From the sequence record PQ863255.1: a stretch of DNA of 64,000 nucleotides, one strand, 5' to 3'. This stretch comes from Escherichia phage Ptacy1532. The position numbers and the translations under genes were made by a program. Below the pieces are notes generated by a model, which saw only the letters and a list, made by a program, of their open reading frames with translations, was not told where the DNA came from and did not search any database. Numbering within the stretch: the stretch's first letter is position 1; every line of letters starts with the position of its first letter. This document shows, in pieces, positions 26,629 through 34,643 of the stretch.

Positions 26629-26814
26629 TTACTCACTCCACCCTCCCGGTGGTACAAAATCATCAGGAACGTCAATGATAGTAGGTTCTCCATCATTCAT
26701 GCAGGTGTCTTCATTGAACTCTTCACACTCAAAACATGCTCGTTCGATATTTTTGTAGAAGTCGATGGTTGCTGAACCATCACCACAATCTCGGATAACT
26801 AAAGCGACTTTCAT
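26629..26814 (-). CDS. Cys-containing acidic hypothetical protein
   Basis: ATG overlaps the phoH stop (ATGA). Confidence 0.4.
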   Translation of the reverse strand: MKVALVIRDCGDGSATIDFYKNIERACFECEEFNEDTCMNDGEPTIIDVPDDFVPPGGWSE

Positions 26815-27554
26815 TTATCTTGTTCCTTTTCCATAGCTTTAACAATGGCTTTACAGAAACCAGAACGAACAATGTCATCTGACTCACCGTCTACAATCTC
26901 AGCAAACTCATACAGATCATGTTCATCAATAAAGTTAGTAGCCCAAGTCAGGCCACTCTCACGACCACGCATATCATGCTGGTTTGTATCACCCATGCAA
27001 AACAGCTGAGAGGTTTCTCCCAATCGAGTCATGATGGAGAAGGCTTCATCCTTAGTTGTGTTCTGGAACTCATCTACGATAACAATAGCATCATTGAAAG
27101 AACGACCACGGAGGTATTCCAGAGGTACGAACTCGATGTTGCTATTACCAAGTTGGCATTCATAGAACCCCTTACCATATCGCTGAGTAATAACATCAAT
27201 GATAGGCATCAGGTAAGGTTCAAACTTCTCACGCATTCCTCCCGGAAGTAACCCAAGAGAATTGCCCATGCCAACCGAAGGACGACTCAGAATGATCTTC
27301 TGAATCTTACCACTCTTCAGTGCATCGATAACCGTGGAAGTGATTACAAAGGTCTTACCACAGCCCGCAGGAGCGTCTGTGAACACAACTTGTTTAGTCT
27401 TAATAGCATTGAGTAGCTCAGACTGAAACTGGTTCTGAGGGACTACAGGCTTTGCTAAAACCACCTCTTCATACTCTCGCTTACCTTTACGAGTAACAAG
27501 TGCTTCCCGACGAAGGTCTTTCCGTGATTCTTTCCGTGATTGACGACGACTCAT
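26811..27554 (-). CDS. phoH: PhoH-like ATPase
   Basis: Walker A DAPAGCGKT plus conserved PhoH core (IVDEFQN, LGETSQLFCMGD). Confidence 0.85.
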   Translation of the reverse strand: MSRRQSRKESRKDLRREALVTRKGKREYEEVVLAKPVVPQNQFQSELLNAIKTKQVVFTDAPAGCGKTFVITSTVIDALKSGKIQKIILSRPSVGMGNSLGLLPGGMREKFEPYLMPIIDVITQRYGKGFYECQLGNSNIEFVPLEYLRGRSFNDAIVIVDEFQNTTKDEAFSIMTRLGETSQLFCMGDTNQHDMRGRESGLTWATNFIDEHDLYEFAEIVDGESDDIVRSGFCKAIVKAMEKEQDK

Positions 27555-27748
27555 TTACGCTCTCCAATTTCTTCGTAATGACACTCAGTAGTTAAGCAGT
27601 CTTTACAGATTGCTGTATAAACCCTGACGTTAGTAAATCGTTTGTTCTTCCCTTTGGTTGGAGAGCCTTTGGCAAGCTCTCTGATAACCTTGTTACTTAA
27701 ATGAAGGTTTGTTCCTTCACATCTAGAGCACTTCACCACAATGTCCAT
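27551..27748 (-). CDS. small zinc-ribbon protein
   Basis: CSRCEG ... CKDCLTTECH; ATGA coupling to phoH. Confidence 0.45.
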   Translation of the reverse strand: MDIVVKCSRCEGTNLHLSNKVIRELAKGSPTKGKNKRFTNVRVYTAICKDCLTTECHYEEIGERK

Positions 27749-27933
27749 TCAGTAAGAGACCACAGGGAGTCACCTATGTGGGCATTGTCATTCCTGATGA
27801 GGTCTTTGATTTTATCAACATCAGTTAAGTGAGTCACATTCAAAATATCCTCAACATCCGGGGTATATTTAAATATGGCAATAATACTGTTGTGATCTTC
27901 AGCATATCTTTCTAGAACATAAACTACACTCAT
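27733..27933 (-). CDS. hypothetical protein
   Basis: 66-aa ORF in the co-directional array. Confidence 0.4.
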   Translation of the reverse strand: MSVVYVLERYAEDHNSIIAIFKYTPDVEDILNVTHLTDVDKIKDLIRNDNAHIGDSLWSLTEWTLW

Positions 27934-28136
27934 AAGGCATCAACCTCTCTCAGATACCACCATTTAAACTCAACACCTTTACGACCACCACCATTCATAA
28001 CCCAACGCATCATCTCATCAGGTATTCCAAAAGGTTTAAGTTTCGCATAGTTAGGTTTTTCTAAGAACACAGCTTCAAAATACTCACCATCTTGATCATA
28101 CTGGTTGATTGCTCTTGTTAGTACCCATACTTTCAT
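27930..28136 (-). CDS. hypothetical protein
   Basis: Track ORF 27930..28247 trimmed to an internal ATG to limit overlap with 28096..28452. Confidence 0.35.
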   Translation of the reverse strand: MKVWVLTRAINQYDQDGEYFEAVFLEKPNYAKLKPFGIPDEMMRWVMNGGGRKGVEFKWWYLREVDAL

Positions 28137-28452
28137 TACTCTTCTCTTTATGAAGTCTATAAACAGCTGTCGCCATGCAAGCAACAGCTTCATTATGCGG
28201 AAGGTGCATCCCTGTAGAACCATCCCAATCTTTGAACTCATTGTCAAAGACTCCGGTAGGTTCTGGATACAGAGCTTGCAGCTCCACTAGATCATTAGCA
28301 ACTTGTTGCCATTTATCATCAGACCAGATAGGGTCATCCAACCAGTAATACAAATAGGAATGGATGATCAATTGCCTTCTATGCCGATTGATTACTTCAG
28401 CGGGACTTATTTCACTTCCATTTGAAGTTCTAAATGTATTACCGTCGATCAT
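28096..28452 (-). CDS. hypothetical protein
   Basis: 118-aa ORF, protein-like composition. Confidence 0.45.
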   Translation of the reverse strand: MIDGNTFRTSNGSEISPAEVINRHRRQLIIHSYLYYWLDDPIWSDDKWQQVANDLVELQALYPEPTGVFDNEFKDWDGSTGMHLPHNEAVACMATAVYRLHKEKSNESMGTNKSNQPV

Positions 28453-32389: not shown

Positions 32390-32586
32390 TAATAATAAAC
32401 CTTGCTGTTGGCAAAAAGAGCACCTTCGTTATTCACAATAGCTTTTCCTATTGTAATCTTACCTGACAGACCTATCCCCTTAAAAATCTTCTTAATTCGA
32501 CGGGCGTGCTCTCGAGTATTAACAAAATCTACAGATTTTATATCACCTGTCTTGTTATCATGTACACGAACAATCCACTTTTTCAT
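32389..32586 (-). CDS. small basic protein, member of a 3-gene tandem paralog set
   Basis: See 31971..32180. Confidence 0.5.
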   Translation of the reverse strand: MKKWIVRVHDNKTGDIKSVDFVNTREHARRIKKIFKGIGLSGKITIGKAIVNNEGALFANSKVYY

Positions 32587-32789
32587 TTTACTAAACCTTT
32601 CATATAATCATAAAGAGCATTAGAAGCTTTACCCCATTCAAGGTGCTTCTTATCCATATAACTCTTACAGGTTTCTTTACTGCTTTCATCACAAATATCA
32701 AATCGATGACATGCTCGACCAAATACCATGGCTTTTAACTGAACATCGGTAGTTAGATATTTAAGTTCTTGAAACTCTTCTTTAGTCAT
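32583..32789 (-). CDS. hypothetical protein (Cys-containing)
   Basis: 68-aa ORF. Confidence 0.45.
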   Translation of the reverse strand: MTKEEFQELKYLTTDVQLKAMVFGRACHRFDICDESSKETCKSYMDKKHLEWGKASNALYDYMKGLVK

Positions 32790-33323
32790 TTACACACCTT
32801 TAGATGCAACTACACCTTCAGAGTTATTATAACGACCCTTCACTGCATAGGAGTGTTCCCCTGCATGAGAGTGCTCAAACATGACCATCTGACCAACACG
32901 CATACCAGCACGAACTCGTAAGCTATGATGCTTGGTTACGTTATGGAACTCAAATGTCAGCTTACTGCTGTTAAACCCTGCGTCTGCCCACCCGGCGTGG
33001 AGATGGTTCAAACCACAACGAGCCATAGACGAACGCAGAACAAACAGACTTGAGATGTTATCTGGAAGATTAAACTCCTCCATAGAGTGAGCCAAGAAAA
33101 ACTGACCCGGAGTGATAACCAAACCCTCTTCAGGAATCTTTACTTCTTTCCACTGAAGATTCTCTTTCGCATCAATATCAACGATGCCATCAGCCTGTTC
33201 TTCAACAAGGATAGTATCACCAATACGGATATCCACACTAGCAGCGTTAACATACTTATGCTCCGCATCCAGATAGCCATTGTCAATTACATCGTGCAGT
33301 TCAACACTTCCTAGTAAACTCAT
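32790..33323 (-). CDS. dCTP deaminase / dUTPase-fold enzyme
   Basis: 177-aa protein with overall dCTP-deaminase-like pattern (VDIRIGDTIL ... VLRSSMARCGL ... GWADAGF). Confidence 0.7.
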   Translation of the reverse strand: MSLLGSVELHDVIDNGYLDAEHKYVNAASVDIRIGDTILVEEQADGIVDIDAKENLQWKEVKIPEEGLVITPGQFFLAHSMEEFNLPDNISSLFVLRSSMARCGLNHLHAGWADAGFNSSKLTFEFHNVTKHHSLRVRAGMRVGQMVMFEHSHAGEHSYAVKGRYNNSEGVVASKGV

Positions 33324-33332
33324 TCTTATTCC

Positions 33333-34643
33333 TTAGTTATTTGTTTCCATGTCAAAAGAGATTCCACGACCCGCTTCATCGGCAAACCGATCATCGAGAC
33401 TGTGACTGACAGTATCAGCAAGTTCTTCATGAGAGGGAATGTCAAGACTACCTACCACATCTTGAGCAGAAGCTTCATCAGTCCAGATAACACGAGAAGG
33501 GGCGTTGATATCACCAACAGCAAAACCCTGACCAGAGAACTGGTGACGGCTAATAGTCAAACCATTTGATCGACCACGAGAAGGACTAGACATCCATCTC
33601 TCCATAGAATCACTTGTAATGCCAAGAGCTTCTTCAAAAGATGTTCTACGAGAAGAGCTTAGATTTCGTGCTTCATTTGCTCGGCGTCTTGTAGGGGCTA
33701 CAAACACCCCTTCGATTGCGTTATGACGACTAGGCTCTTCTTCTCTACCAAGCAAATCACCACCCGTGTTAGTCGTTAAATTTGTCAACCCTTCAGACCA
33801 ATACGCATAAATTTGACCAGACCCATGAAGACTTGACATAATCTGAATCTCTTCATAGGGGATTCCAAAGAATCGACTCATGTCACGGTTAACGCAATAC
33901 TGAGCACTTGTTGTATCCTCAATAAGAGAAACCTGACCTAATCCATTAACCAGATGACTAACTGGCTGAGGTGTAGGAAGGTATCGAGTTTGGGCCATAT
34001 ATTGATATGCAACAGATGGAGCTGAGAATCTCAACACTTGTGAATTAGGCCACTTTTTGTGAACGTATCTGATTTCACGACTAGAAACAACCACAGGGCA
34101 AGGAGCGGTCATAGCTAAATACCCATGAGGGGTCATGAATAAGTTGTCAAGAGTCATCGCACCACGGCACATCATAGGAAAATTATCCAGAACCTCTTCA
34201 ATAGAAGTAGGATAATTAAACATGAACTGGATACGAGTTCCATTCCACTGAAACTCAATAATATCAGTGAACGTTAATTGAGAAGTCCCTGTGTATGGCT
34301 CATCTGTAGCTTCAGCAAGAAGTGACGAATATTCAATATCTTGTGACTCAAGCCACTCCTTCACGTTACTTTCAATTTCTCTTCCAAGAGCTTGCCAATG
34401 ATCAGTTGATGTGAAAGTATTTTGGGTTCTTGGTGTTTGTCCTCTGACAATAAAGATATCAATGTCATGTGGAGCTGTGTTGTTAAGGACAGCATCACGA
34501 ACAGCCCCACCAGTAATGATGGGACAGATACCGTCTGGAATCAAGTTGTTGTTAATCAACTGTTCAATGAAGTGACGACCAACAGTGATATCAGGTTGTT
34601 GAGCAACCTTATCTTCAATTCGGTTAATCGGGATAACAATCAT
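33333..34643 (-). CDS. nucleotidyltransferase (poly(A) polymerase / CCA-adding enzyme-like head domain) with long C-terminal extension
   Basis: Track ORF trimmed to the ATG after the exo-gene stop; GGAVRD ... DIDIF matches the class-II nucleotidyltransferase head motif. Confidence 0.55.
   Translation of the reverse strand: MIVIPINRIEDKVAQQPDITVGRHFIEQLINNNLIPDGICPIITGGAVRDAVLNNTAPHDIDIFIVRGQTPRTQNTFTSTDHWQALGREIESNVKEWLESQDIEYSSLLAEATDEPYTGTSQLTFTDIIEFQWNGTRIQFMFNYPTSIEEVLDNFPMMCRGAMTLDNLFMTPHGYLAMTAPCPVVVSSREIRYVHKKWPNSQVLRFSAPSVAYQYMAQTRYLPTPQPVSHLVNGLGQVSLIEDTTSAQYCVNRDMSRFFGIPYEEIQIMSSLHGSGQIYAYWSEGLTNLTTNTGGDLLGREEEPSRHNAIEGVFVAPTRRRANEARNLSSSRRTSFEEALGITSDSMERWMSSPSRGRSNGLTISRHQFSGQGFAVGDINAPSRVIWTDEASAQDVVGSLDIPSHEELADTVSHSLDDRFADEAGRGISFDMETNN

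What the first reader, a model, noticed from the sequence alone, without database searches (positions are those of the whole stretch)
26811..34643. Compact nucleotide-metabolism module between the two polymerase genes
PhoH-like ATPase, ThyX-type thymidylate synthase, thioredoxin, dCTP deaminase, a nucleotidyltransferase with a GGAVRD head motif and a long C-terminal extension, and nearby HAD-like and metallophosphoesterase genes together suggest the phage rebuilds the dTTP supply. The nucleotidyltransferase is unusual: it could repair the tRNA CCA end, polyadenylate RNA, or act on nucleotides in some other way.
Basis: partly seen in the sequence, partly recalled or inferred. Interest (0 to 1): 0.4.

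Follow-up and report, generated by a model that had tools for sequence, protein, structure and literature searches.

The report
Phage thymidine module plus Gad2-like enzyme
This stretch is the already-annotated DNA-replication block of a common E. coli phage: it has two enzymes that turn C nucleotides into T, plus an odd nucleotide-transferring enzyme that looks less like a tRNA-repair enzyme than like a phage protein known to switch off a bacterial immune system.

Summary
The window is a Kuravirus (phiEco32-like) coliphage. Region 26811-34643 is 92-95% identical to more than 90 deposited phages that carry the same gene names. PhoH, ThyX, thioredoxin, dCTP deaminase and the metallophosphoesterase pass Pfam cut-offs. 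The HAD-like gene is supported only by its four motifs. The "two polymerase genes" are the separately encoded exonuclease and polymerase subunits of one T7-type polymerase.

The nucleotidyltransferase is not a CCA-adding enzyme or a poly(A) polymerase. It keeps motif A only, lacks motifs B and D and the tRNA-binding body and tail, and ends in a disordered tail. Profile-profile comparison links it to Gad2, the Gabija anti-defence nucleotidyltransferase (88-94% probability, against 18% for Cca/PcnB). It is also by far the most divergent gene of the block: 27-40% identity where its neighbours keep 55-95%.

The module is known. The Gad2 link is a modest, testable lead. Published work already singles out this locus because these phages resist restriction unexplained.

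The parts
34645..35202 (-). 3'-5' exonuclease subunit of the split T7-type DNA polymerase. Its stop codon lies 1 nt before the NTase start codon.
   Evidence: Pfam DNA_pol_A_exo1, E 2e-8. Sits directly upstream of the NTase in all nine contexts examined.
33774..34643 (-). Folded part of the nucleotidyltransferase (aa 1-290): a class-II-like head plus helical neck, Gad2-like. GGAVRD is at 34494-34511, DxD at 34458-34466, and P-x5-R-x3-Y at 34065-34097.
33333..33773 (-). C-terminal extension of the NTase (aa 291-436). Predicted disordered except two short helical stretches. Rich in indels, net charge about -13, with a conserved acidic end RFADEAGRGISFD.
   Evidence: pLDDT <50 for 303-331, 352-401 and 423-436. 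Variable with indels among Kuravirus. Absent or unrelated in distant family members of 274-340 aa.
32790..33323 (-). dCTP deaminase (Dcd).
   Evidence: Pfam DCD, 118.5 bits. Best solved relatives are 4xjc (6e-15) and the M. tuberculosis enzyme 2qxx (7e-14), ahead of E. coli Dcd (7e-8). The Ser/Arg/Glu positions are aligned.
31971..32789 (-). Four small ORFs (68, 65, 69 and 69 aa). Three of them are tandem paralogues ending in ...VYY/VHY/IYY. Function unknown.
   Evidence: Translations. Annotated as hypothetical in relatives.
31568..31897 (-). Conserved 109-aa protein of unknown function that overlaps the start of the Dps-like gene.
   Evidence: 92-97% identical in sister genera and 73% in the distant relative. 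No Pfam hit.
31012..31575 (-). Dps/ferritin-like protein, followed by a terminator-like hairpin at 30976-31004.
   Evidence: Pfam Ferritin, E 3e-7. PHROG 3636, E 3e-55. Hairpin found.
30316..30591 (-). Thioredoxin with a CAPC active site.
   Evidence: Pfam Thioredoxin, E 2e-13. Sequence.
29847..30326 (-). Free-standing HNH homing endonuclease between trx and thyX. A mobile insert, not part of the pathway.
   Evidence: Pfam HNH_3. 95% identical in EP335, 40% in SU7, and not annotated at this position in WFI101126.
29198..29854 (-). Flavin-dependent thymidylate synthase ThyX, of a phage subfamily that has K-H-Q in place of the R-H-R of the ThyX motif.
   Evidence: Pfam Thy1, 150 bits. PDB 6j61, E 2e-30. 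The KHQ variant is conserved in the 120 closest clusters.
28096..28452 (-). Solo NAD+-binding Ia domain of NAD-dependent ligase (Nlig-Ia). Not a ligase.
   Evidence: Pfam PF22745, E 2.5e-35. [quoted passage not shown]
26811..27554 (-). PhoH-like P-loop ATPase.
   Evidence: Pfam PhoH, 190 bits. 95-99.6% identical in sister genera, and not found in the fetched part of the distant relative L002.
22718..24562 (-). Polymerase subunit of the split T7-type DNA polymerase.
   Evidence: Pfam DNA_pol_A. T7 gp5, E 1e-32, with a weak match of aa 63-135 to T7 residues 289-357.
21723..22115 (-). HAD-like phosphatase candidate, supported by motifs only.
   Evidence: Invariant D5 D7 T9 / T35 / K68 / D84 D85 in alignment A3. 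No HMM or PDB hit. The AF2 single-sequence model is unusable, pLDDT 44.
20502..21005 (-). Metallophosphoesterase.
   Evidence: Pfam Metallophos, 25.8 bits against a cut-off of 21.5. PHROG 547, E 3e-52.
16672..17208 (-). T7 gp1.7-type nucleotide kinase (DUF3310).
   Evidence: Pfam DUF3310, E 2.5e-7. PHROG 26149 'deoxynucleoside monophosphate kinase', E 1e-106.

Best explanation
The region is the conserved middle-gene (replication) block of a Kuravirus/phiEco32-like coliphage. It lies between the separately encoded exonuclease and polymerase subunits of a T7-type DNA polymerase, and it holds two functionally separate things.

(1) A short pyrimidine route. dCTP deaminase converts dCTP to dUTP, or directly to dUMP if the enzyme is bifunctional. 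ThyX methylates dUMP to dTMP without needing dihydrofolate reductase. A gp1.7-type kinase about 10 kb downstream can phosphorylate dTMP. Together these shift the pyrimidine pool from C towards T for a 42% GC genome. The enzyme identities are shown; the flux and its purpose are inferred.

(2) The 'unusual' nucleotidyltransferase is not a tRNA-CCA or poly(A) enzyme. It is a divergent relative of Gad2, the phage nucleotidyltransferase that inactivates the Gabija defence system. It has a class-II-type catalytic head and neck with the GG...DxD metal site. It lacks the ribose- and base-selecting motifs B and D and the tRNA-binding body and tail, and it carries a disordered tail specific to this lineage. 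It most likely transfers a nucleotide onto an as yet unknown acceptor to blunt a host defence. Homology, fold and evolutionary behaviour are shown; the anti-defence role and the acceptor are inferred.

The remaining genes are accessories: thioredoxin (possibly the polymerase's processivity factor), PhoH, a Dps-like protein, a solo Nlig-Ia NAD+ sensor and an HNH homing endonuclease.
For: Identity of the phage and prior annotation.

Enzyme assignments.

Conserved order in relatives down to 30% identity.

NTase:
- An exhaustive search of 1.84 billion representative proteins finds only 31 relatives, none of them a canonical CCA or PAP enzyme.
- Sequence similarity to class II enzymes is confined to motif A.
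- 0 of 34 family members have RRD, and none has [ED]DxxR at the motif D position (two carry that pattern only at aa 233, past the catalytic region).
- Precomputed Pfam hit PF26128 'Gad2' (weak) on the Kuravirus proteins.
- hhalign of the family against Gad2 gives 94.1% probability, E 1.3e-7, 169 columns, and 88.3%, E 2.9e-6, 128 columns with the session tool. Against E. coli Cca/PcnB it gives 17.9%; a reversed Gad2 alignment gives 1.7%, and column-shuffled versions give at most 0.3%.
- The motif P-x5-R-x3-Y is shared with identical spacing.
- The NTase is 27-40% identical between lineages in which Dcd is 78-94%, primase-helicase 77-95% and exo 55-85% identical. This is the pattern expected of a host-conflict gene.
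- Gad2's anti-Gabija activity was shown by knockout and by heterologous expression.

A homologous NTase of phage Emajogi (gp22; the primase/helicase is gp23) is cytotoxic at high induction and has homologues annotated as Gad2 family.
Against: The Gad2 relationship is remote: 16-18% identity, and the Pfam hit is only 'weak'. The local Pfam copy lacks that model, so I could not re-score the hit.

Two residues invariant in the Gad2 set are not kept. The Asp of FDFT aligns with the invariant Pro156 of the Kuravirus family, and the His of HEDF is not conserved.

Gad2's own mechanism is unknown. Gabija was not among the systems tested on Gordonclarkvirinae.

The extreme divergence could reflect replacement by a distant allele or relaxed constraint rather than an arms race.

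Whether Dcd is mono- or bifunctional cannot be read from the sequence. The KHQ variant of the ThyX motif has not been tested biochemically as far as I found.
Confidence: 0.6

Rival explanations
1. The NTase is a minimal tRNA nucleotidyltransferase or poly(A) polymerase. It would repair CCA ends damaged by host tRNA-directed defences, or tail RNAs to change their stability.
For: GGAVRD...DxD motif A, and a weak Pfam PolyA_pol head hit of 21.3 bits. The best solved structural matches are E. coli PAP I and CCA- or A-adding enzymes. The phage carries one tRNA gene.
Against: The Pfam score is below the gathering cut-off of 23. Motifs B and D are absent in all 34 family members. The folded part ends near residue 290 with no body or tail domains, and only 148-177 residues superpose. 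hhalign to Cca/PcnB gives 17.9%, against 88-94% to Gad2. The phage tRNA-Arg has its CCA encoded. A housekeeping repair enzyme acting on an invariant substrate would not be expected to be the fastest-diverging gene of the block.
Confidence: 0.12
2. Dcd and the NTase belong to a covalent DNA-modification pathway (for example dU in place of dT, as in PBS1, or a nucleotide-derived adduct) that protects the genome from restriction. Humolli et al. 2025 proposed this for exactly this locus.
For: Gordonclarkvirinae are reported as remarkably resistant to RM systems without a known modification pathway or inhibitor, and the authors point to this Dcd-NTase locus (PMC11990801). EcoRV is in their test panel, and the window holds 29 GATATC sites against 16 expected, so site avoidance cannot explain resistance to that enzyme. 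Dcd always lies immediately downstream of the NTase.
Against: A conserved ThyX (79-94% between genera; dN/dS 0.07 in one pairwise comparison with a close relative) and a gp1.7-type kinase argue for making dTTP, not replacing it. No uracil-DNA glycosylase inhibitor or dTMP-removing enzyme was recognised among the 37 ORFs of 15852-41463 that I scanned. phiEco32 termini were mapped by restriction profiling, so the DNA is cut in vitro (PMC9965538). The genome shows strong restriction-site avoidance: CCWGG 1 against 81 expected, GATC 143 against 254, GAATTC 3 against 22, and all palindromic hexamers at z -8.5. Such avoidance is typical of phages whose DNA is exposed to restriction rather than globally modified.
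Confidence: 0.13
3. The NTase is a replisome accessory with no defence role. For example, it could be a terminal transferase acting on primers or DNA 3' ends, tethered through its acidic C-terminal tail in the way the acidic tails of T7 gp4 and gp2.5 bind the polymerase.
For: It is encoded 1 nt after the exonuclease subunit and just downstream of the primase-helicase in every context. Structurally related mini-NTases of Autographiviridae occupy the same place; LKD16 gp16 lies between the helicase and the ligase. Loss of motif B removes the usual ribose check. The tail is acidic with a conserved end.
Against: A protein docking on subunits that are 80-95% conserved would be expected to co-conserve with them, yet it is 27-40% identical. 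The tail is absent or unrelated in most family members. No relative was detected in the deposited genomes of related phages outside Gordonclarkvirinae.
Confidence: 0.1

Closest known systems
The same locus in published Kuravirus/Gordonclarkvirinae phages (phiEco32, SU10, NJ01, 172-1, WFI101126, Paul, the BASEL isolates Bas87-92 named in my hit lists)
   Same: 92-95% nucleotide identity over 84-92% of the region, with the same genes in the same order and the same product names: PhoH-like, thymidylate synthase ThyX, thioredoxin, dCTP deaminase, nucleotidyltransferase. The split polymerase and the nucleotide-metabolism genes are described in PMC9965538 and PMC8948821. The Dcd-NTase locus is shown in S3 Fig of PMC11990801.
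   Different: Only isolate-level differences. An HNH endonuclease is present here between trx and thyX. The NTase is the 436-aa form that lacks a 17-aa segment found in the other Kuravirus sequences aligned.
Gad2, Gabija anti-defence protein 2 (phage SPbetaL7 and a Brevibacillus laterosporus prophage; Pfam PF26128)
   Same: A phage-encoded NTase of about 400 aa. It shares GG...DxDxF, the IQxM strand, F-x-x-x-C-x-G, and P-x5-R-x3-Y with identical spacing. hhalign gives 88-94% probability over 128-169 columns. A weak Pfam Gad2 hit is on record for the Kuravirus proteins.
   Different: 16-18% identity. The Kuravirus family keeps the class II R-D of GGxVRD where most Gad2 sequences have I-T-S. The Gad2-invariant Asp of FDFT is Pro here, and the HEDF His is not kept. 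Gad2 has a C-terminal region of about 170 aa, whereas this protein has a disordered tail. Gad2 sits in an anti-defence locus of SPbeta-like phages, while this gene sits inside the replication operon. Anti-Gabija activity is untested here.
Class II nucleotidyltransferases (bacterial CCA-adding, CC-adding and A-adding enzymes, poly(A) polymerase I)
   Same: Motif A, and the head fold plus part of the neck.
   Different: No motif B (RRD), no motif D (EDxxR), and no body or tail domains. The Pfam score is below cut-off. Profile-profile probability is 18%.
Mini 'PolyA_pol head' nucleotidyltransferases of Autographiviridae and other podophages (e.g. Pseudomonas phage LKD16 gp16, 199 aa)
   Same: Related predicted structures: Foldseek E 3e-8 to 5e-4, target-normalised TM 0.44-0.62 for most of the named phage proteins. 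They hold the same position in the replication module, next to the helicase. The motif-B region of LKD16 (VLDTFDYTLNQIG) bridges the CCA form (DLKRRDLTINALA) and this one (VLDNFPMMCRGAM).
   Different: Half the size with no tail. Sequence similarity is marginal (hhalign 41%). Their function is equally unknown.
The dCTP deaminase / ThyX pyrimidine route (dCTP -> dUTP/dUMP -> dTMP), and T7 gp1.7 nucleotide kinase with T7 gp5-thioredoxin
   Same: The enzymes match the families with the aligned catalytic residues present. The kinase carries the DUF3310 domain. The polymerase is T7 gp5-like.
   Different: ThyX carries K-H-Q for R-H-R, a trait of a large phage subfamily. The thioredoxin is phage-encoded rather than borrowed from the host as in T7. 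The polymerase is split into two genes 10 kb apart.

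Membership tests
Class II CCA-adding enzyme / poly(A) polymerase | Motif A: GGxVRD followed by DxD (metal-binding carboxylates) | tested here: met
   GGAVRD at aa 45-50 and DID at aa 60-62. G45 G46 R49 D50 D60 D62 are invariant in 25 family members.
Class II CCA-adding enzyme / poly(A) polymerase | Motif B (RRD, ribose recognition) and motif D (EDxxR, base selection) | tested here: not met
   0 of 34 family members have RRD in the first 260 aa, and none has [ED]DxxR in the catalytic region (two carry it only at aa 233). HMM and hhalign alignments to CCA/PAP cover motif A only. 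The motif-B position reads NFP, with Pro156 invariant.
Class II CCA-adding enzyme / poly(A) polymerase | Body and tail domains that hold the tRNA; Pfam PolyA_pol at or above the gathering score | tested here: not met
Gad2 (Gabija anti-defence 2, PF26128) | Homology to verified Gad2 across the NTase domain | tested here: met
   hhalign 94.1%, E 1.3e-7, 169 columns, and 88.3%, E 2.9e-6, 128 columns. Controls: Cca/PcnB 17.9%, reversed 1.7%, shuffled at most 0.3%.
Gad2 (Gabija anti-defence 2, PF26128) | Hit to the curated Pfam model at its gathering score | tested here: inconclusive
   Precomputed PF26128 hits are listed for 29 of 44 close homologue clusters and flagged 'weak'. The local Pfam copy lacks the model, since the verified Gad2 itself gets no hit, so no score could be computed for the window protein.
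Gad2 (Gabija anti-defence 2, PF26128) | Residues invariant in the seven Gad2 homologues aligned (G31 G32, D45 D47 F50, F106 D107 T109, H125, P146 R152 Y156) | tested here: inconclusive
   Kept: GG, DxDxF, F155, and P183/R189/Y193 with the same spacing. Not kept: D107 aligns with Pro156, T109 with Met157, and H125 is not conserved.
Gad2 (Gabija anti-defence 2, PF26128) | Inhibition of Gabija defence in vivo | not testable with these tools
   Shown only for SPbetaL7 Gad2 and a B. laterosporus homologue. Gabija was not in the panel tested on Gordonclarkvirinae.
dCTP deaminase (trimeric dUTPase-like superfamily) | Pfam DCD above cut-off, and the catalytic Ser, Arg and Glu aligned | tested here: met
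   118.5 bits against 27. RSSMAR and FEFHN align with GRSSVGR/LELFN of 4xjc and GKSSLGR/LELSN of 2qxx.
dCTP deaminase (trimeric dUTPase-like superfamily) | Bifunctional (dUMP-forming) versus monofunctional | tested here: inconclusive
   The best solved relatives are 4xjc and the M. tuberculosis enzyme (E 6e-15 and 7e-14), ahead of monofunctional E. coli Dcd (7e-8). That those two are bifunctional is from my own knowledge; the PDB names say only 'Deoxycytidine triphosphate deaminase'. The chains actually labelled dUMP-forming (1ogh, 3.6e-7) rank below E. coli Dcd. Ranking is in any case not a functional test.
Flavin-dependent thymidylate synthase ThyX | Pfam Thy1 above cut-off and similarity to solved ThyX enzymes | tested here: met
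   150.5 bits against 24.8. 6j61 at E 2e-30 and T. maritima ThyX at 1e-23.
Flavin-dependent thymidylate synthase ThyX | ThyX motif RHR-x7-S | tested here: inconclusive
   The motif reads K-H-Q-VGFSWNEM-S-R-R-Y. The His, the Ser and the following Arg are kept; the first Arg is Lys and the second is Gln. The variant is conserved in all but one of the 120 closest clusters, down to 53% identity, so it is a subfamily trait and not decay. Activity is untested.
HAD-superfamily phosphatase | Four HAD motifs (DxDxT; S/T; K; DD) on a Rossmann-like fold | tested here: inconclusive
   The motifs are invariant in alignment A3. There is no Pfam, PDB or profile hit. The AF2 single-sequence model has pLDDT 44 and was not searched.
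PhoH-like ATPase | Pfam PhoH above cut-off with a Walker A motif | tested here: met
   190 bits against 27; GCGKT is present.
Thioredoxin | Thioredoxin fold HMM above cut-off and a CxxC active site | tested here: met
   50.6 bits against 23.5; the site reads C-A-P-C.

The most novel reading that the evidence does not exclude
The Kuravirus nucleotidyltransferase is a Gad2-type counter-defence enzyme built into the replication operon. It nucleotidylates phage DNA ends, a replication intermediate or a host sensor, and so blinds end-sensing or nucleotide-sensing immunity (Gabija and perhaps others). On this reading it would account for part of the unexplained broad resistance of Gordonclarkvirinae to host defences. 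Its replacement by 27-40% identical alleles between otherwise 80-95% identical phages would be the trace of that conflict.
Probability: 0.2. Interest if true: 0.65.

Novelty: new member of a known kind. Interest (0 to 1): 0.33.

Why it matters
The module itself adds nothing new. It is the annotated replication and nucleotide block of a well-sampled phage genus.

The useful result is the re-assignment of its one odd gene. Gad2's mechanism is still unknown (review of February 2026). Gordonclarkvirinae are reported as unusually resistant to host defences with no known cause, and the authors of that report point to this very locus.

A Gad2-like enzyme in a phage that grows on engineered E. coli K-12 gives a tractable system to test two things: how Gad2-type transferases work, and whether this gene or a DNA modification underlies that resistance.

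It also corrects three annotations that propagate in databases: 'class II CCA-adding enzyme' for the NTase, 'NAD-dependent DNA ligase' for a 118-aa solo Ia domain, and 'DNA polymerase' for the exonuclease subunit.

Tried and rejected
- NTase against sequence libraries: direct searches of PDB, Pfam, NCBIfam and PADLOC gave nothing beyond motif A.
- Word-indexed homologue search: it returned only close Kuravirus proteins, and few distant ones even when given a profile. The exhaustive search was needed to reach the rest of the family.
- hhalign against E. coli Cca/PcnB: motif A only.
- AFDB50 fold search: library not available.
- dN/dS against WFI101126: uninformative for the NTase, because that phage is 98% identical there.
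- Sigma-70 promoter scan: 26 sites against 34 expected, so not above chance. These phages use their own sigma factor for middle genes.
- PhoH hits to GajB and HamB in PADLOC: generic P-loop/helicase motif matches, not evidence of a relationship.
- A weak phmmer match of the NTase tail to a homeodomain (E 0.88): dismissed as noise.
- ThyX as a decaying gene, considered because of the KHQ motif: rejected, since the variant is conserved across all but one of 120 clusters.
- CCA repair of the phage's own tRNA: rejected, since the CCA is encoded.

Full report
**What the window is.** All genes of the region lie on the minus strand. Megablast of 26811-34643 finds 98 phage records. 42 of them hold at least 80% of the query, and the best are 92-95% identical. 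Nearly all are Escherichia or Shigella phages of the genus Kuravirus and its relatives (subfamily Gordonclarkvirinae, the phiEco32 group). Published descriptions of SU10, YF01 and phage 7-11 already mention the split polymerase, the thymidylate synthase, the dCTP deaminase and a 'nucleotide metabolism' middle-gene cluster.

**Checking the observation.**
- Pfam confirms PhoH (190 bits), ThyX (150 bits), thioredoxin (51 bits), dCTP deaminase (118 bits) and the 3'-5' exonuclease.
- Pfam also confirms the family A polymerase and the metallophosphoesterase.
- The polymerase subunit is T7 gp5-like, E 1e-32. So the 'two polymerase genes' are the exonuclease and polymerase halves of one T7-type enzyme, encoded 10 kb apart.
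- The HAD-like gene has no HMM or PDB match. Its four HAD motifs are nevertheless invariant in an alignment with homologues 28-54% identical. The single-sequence structure model was too poor to use.
Iyer et al. 2022 described such solo domains, citing ECBP2_0056 from Escherichia phage ECBP2, as predicted NAD+ sensors.
- The gene order exo, NTase, Dcd ... Trx ... Dps-like ... ThyX ... PolA is kept in sister genera (SU7, EP335) and in metagenomic relatives whose proteins are only 30-80% identical. The arrangement is therefore conserved and not accidental.

**The pyrimidine route.**
- Dcd aligns with solved dCTP deaminases with the catalytic Ser, Arg and Glu in place. Its best solved relatives are 4xjc and the M. 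tuberculosis enzyme, ahead of E. coli Dcd. From my own knowledge those two are bifunctional, dUMP-forming enzymes. This hints at direct dUMP formation but does not prove it, and the chains the PDB itself labels dUMP-forming rank below E. coli Dcd.
- ThyX matches solved enzymes at E 2e-30. It reads K-H-Q where the ThyX motif has R-H-R. That variant is present in all but one of the 120 closest protein clusters, down to 53% identity, including proteins from unrelated Salmonella and Staphylococcus phages. It therefore marks a phage subfamily rather than a decaying gene.
- With the gp1.7-type kinase this gives dCTP -> dU(T/M)P -> dTMP -> dTDP.
- The window is about 42% GC against about 51% for E. 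coli (established knowledge). Converting surplus C into T makes sense. This last step is inference.

**The genes that do not belong to that route.**
- Nothing ties PhoH, the Dps-like protein, the HAD-like protein or the phosphoesterase to dTTP supply.
- The thioredoxin keeps a CAPC site. Residues 63-135 of the polymerase subunit match, weakly, the thioredoxin-binding loop region of T7 gp5. A processivity role is therefore a reasonable alternative, though only a lead.
- The HNH gene between trx and thyX is a mobile homing endonuclease: 95% identical in EP335, 40% in SU7, and not annotated at this position in WFI101126.

**The nucleotidyltransferase: what it is not.**
- Its only library match is the PolyA_pol head at 21.3 bits, below the cut-off of 23. 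There is no PDB match by sequence.
- An exhaustive HMMER search of 1.84 billion representative proteins finds just 31 relatives. The 24 I aligned with the window protein are 274-482 aa long and share an N-terminal domain of about 215 aa followed by unrelated tails.
- A profile of the family touches CCA enzymes only over GGAVRD...DxD.
- None of 34 members has motif B (RRD), and none has motif D (EDxxR) in the catalytic region.
- AlphaFold gives a confident fold for residues 1-290 and disorder beyond.
- The phage's single tRNA-Arg(TCT) has its CCA encoded.
- The protein therefore fails the membership test for CCA-adding enzymes and poly(A) polymerases, although it derives from the same fold.

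**The nucleotidyltransferase: what it resembles.**
- The precomputed Pfam column for the Kuravirus homologues lists PF26128, whose name is Gad2, flagged weak.
- Gad2 is the second Gabija anti-defence protein of SPbeta-like Bacillus phages. It is a 400-aa predicted nucleotidyltransferase. Knocking it out sensitises the phage to Gabija, and a homologue from Brevibacillus laterosporus abolishes Gabija defence.
- The local Pfam copy lacks that model, since the verified Gad2 itself gets no hit. I therefore took Gad2 sequences from the paper's Supplementary Table 10 and compared profiles.
- hhalign gives 94.1% probability, E 1.3e-7, over 169 columns. The session's own tool gives 88.3%, E 2.9e-6, over 128 columns.
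- Controls: 17.9% for E. coli Cca/PcnB, 1.7% for a reversed Gad2 alignment, and at most 0.3% for five column-shuffled versions.
- Shared features are GG...DxDxF, an IQxM strand, F-x-x-x-C-x-G, and P-x5-R-x3-Y with identical spacing (P183/R189/Y193 here, P146/R152/Y156 in Gad2).
- Two Gad2-invariant residues are not kept: the Asp of FDFT is the family's invariant Pro156, and the His of HEDF is not conserved. The family is therefore best called a divergent relative of Gad2, not a proven orthologue.

**Independent support from evolution and context.**
- Between this phage and the sister genera the NTase domain is 34-40% identical. Its immediate neighbours are far more conserved: exo 80-85%, Dcd 93-94%, primase-helicase 93-95%, PhoH 95-99.6%.
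- In more distant relatives the NTase domain is 27-30% identical, against 78-82% for Dcd and 77-83% for primase-helicase.
- Among deposited phages the values are bimodal, 87-98% or 34-40%, with nothing between. This looks like exchange of old alleles at a fixed position. It is typical of genes in conflict with the host.
- Structurally related mini-NTases of Autographiviridae sit at the equivalent place. LKD16 gp16 lies between the helicase and the ligase. Its motif-B region is intermediate between the CCA form and this one.
- A preprint reports that such an NTase in phage Emajogi (gp22; the primase/helicase is gp23) is cytotoxic at high induction and has homologues annotated as Gad2 family.
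- Gad2's mechanism was still listed as unknown in February 2026.

**The published rival.** Humolli et al. 2025 report that Gordonclarkvirinae are remarkably resistant to restriction-modification systems without a known modification pathway. [quoted passage not shown] I find more evidence against this than for it.
- Against:
  - A conserved thymidylate synthase and a dTMP-type kinase are present.
  - phiEco32 termini were mapped by restriction profiling.
  - The window shows marked restriction-site avoidance: CCWGG 1 against 81 expected, GATC 143 against 254, GAATTC 3 against 22, no BamHI or PstI sites, and palindromic hexamers at z -8.5. That is what one expects of DNA exposed to restriction.
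- For: EcoRV is in their test panel, and GATATC occurs 29 times against 16 expected. Site avoidance therefore cannot be the whole story, and some active protection remains to be found.

**Verdict.**
There is a real dCTP-to-dTTP route, but it consists of two genes in the block plus a kinase outside it.
- The 'unusual' transferase most likely belongs to counter-defence rather than to nucleotide supply or tRNA repair.
- The module is already known. The Gad2 link for this phage group, and the gene's outlier divergence, are modest but directly testable leads.

Noticed in passing
window 1-64000: Strong restriction-site avoidance against a first-order Markov expectation. CCWGG occurs 1 time against 81 expected (z -9.2), GATC 143 against 254, GAATTC 3 against 22, GGATCC 0 against 10.7, CTGCAG 0 against 15.8, and all 64 palindromic hexamers 666 against 938 (z -8.5). 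GATATC (EcoRV) is over-represented, 29 against 16.
   Followed up: partly
window 24507-24535 (-): A perfect sigma-70 consensus promoter (TTGACA, 17-nt spacer, TATAAT, with an extended -10 TG) lies inside the first 60 nt of the polymerase-subunit ORF (GTG start at 24562). The scan as a whole was not above chance.
   Followed up: no
window 29198-29854 (-): ThyX carries K-H-Q where the canonical ThyX motif has R-H-R, plus a one-residue insertion. The variant is conserved in all but one of the 120 closest clusters, down to 53% identity, including Salmonella phage SeKF_80 and Staphylococcus phage Pel53. It appears to define a phage ThyX subfamily whose cofactor binding may differ.
   Followed up: partly
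window 31971-32586 (-) and 25165-25705 (-): Two sets of tandem small paralogues of unknown function. The first is three ORFs of 65-69 aa ending in VYY/VHY/IYY. The second is two ORFs of 84-94 aa ending in ...GKFISY...PFPKG.
   Followed up: no
window 37206-41463 (-) and beyond: Just upstream of the primase-helicase lies a conserved early cluster: a gamma-glutamyl cyclotransferase-like protein, an ATP-grasp enzyme and a large glutamine-amidotransferase fusion. Relatives also carry Amidoligase_2 and COOH-NH2 ligase genes there. The cluster is kept even in the distant metagenomic relatives. Its product or target is unknown, and it could bear on the unexplained defence resistance of these phages.
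   Followed up: no
window 28096-28452 (-) and 17199-17591 (-): Two predicted small-molecule sensor domains as stand-alone proteins. One is a solo Nlig-Ia NAD+-binding domain, mis-annotated as 'NAD-dependent DNA ligase' in several records. The other is a SLOG/YAcAr protein that scores 27.9 bits, just under its cut-off of 28.2.
   Followed up: partly
window 33333-33450 (-), NTase C-terminus: The NTase here, and probably that of phage WFI101126 (an annotated CDS of the same 436-aa length), lacks a 17-aa segment (RFIANNPEVLEPQTRTV) present in the 16 other Kuravirus homologues aligned. The tail is generally indel-rich but ends in a conserved acidic motif, RFADEAGRGISFD.
   Followed up: partly
window 29847-30326 (-): An HNH homing endonuclease sits between trx and thyX and overlaps both. 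It is 95% identical in EP335, a different HNH (40%) occupies the site in SU7, and none is annotated there in WFI101126. A second HNH gene lies at 18786-19199.
   Followed up: partly
window 26079-26393 (-): A 104-aa low-complexity protein, strongly basic and rich in Gly, Ser, Arg and Lys. It is conserved at 86-93% in sister genera and 73% in the distant relative, and has no family match.
   Followed up: no
window 51765-51839 (-): The single tRNA gene, tRNA-Arg(TCT), has its 3' CCA encoded in the genome.
   Followed up: yes
window 22718-24562 (-), aa 63-135: A weak match (domain E 4.5) of the polymerase subunit to T7 gp5 residues 289-357, the thioredoxin-binding loop region. This suggests that the phage-encoded thioredoxin may be its processivity factor.
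   Followed up: no
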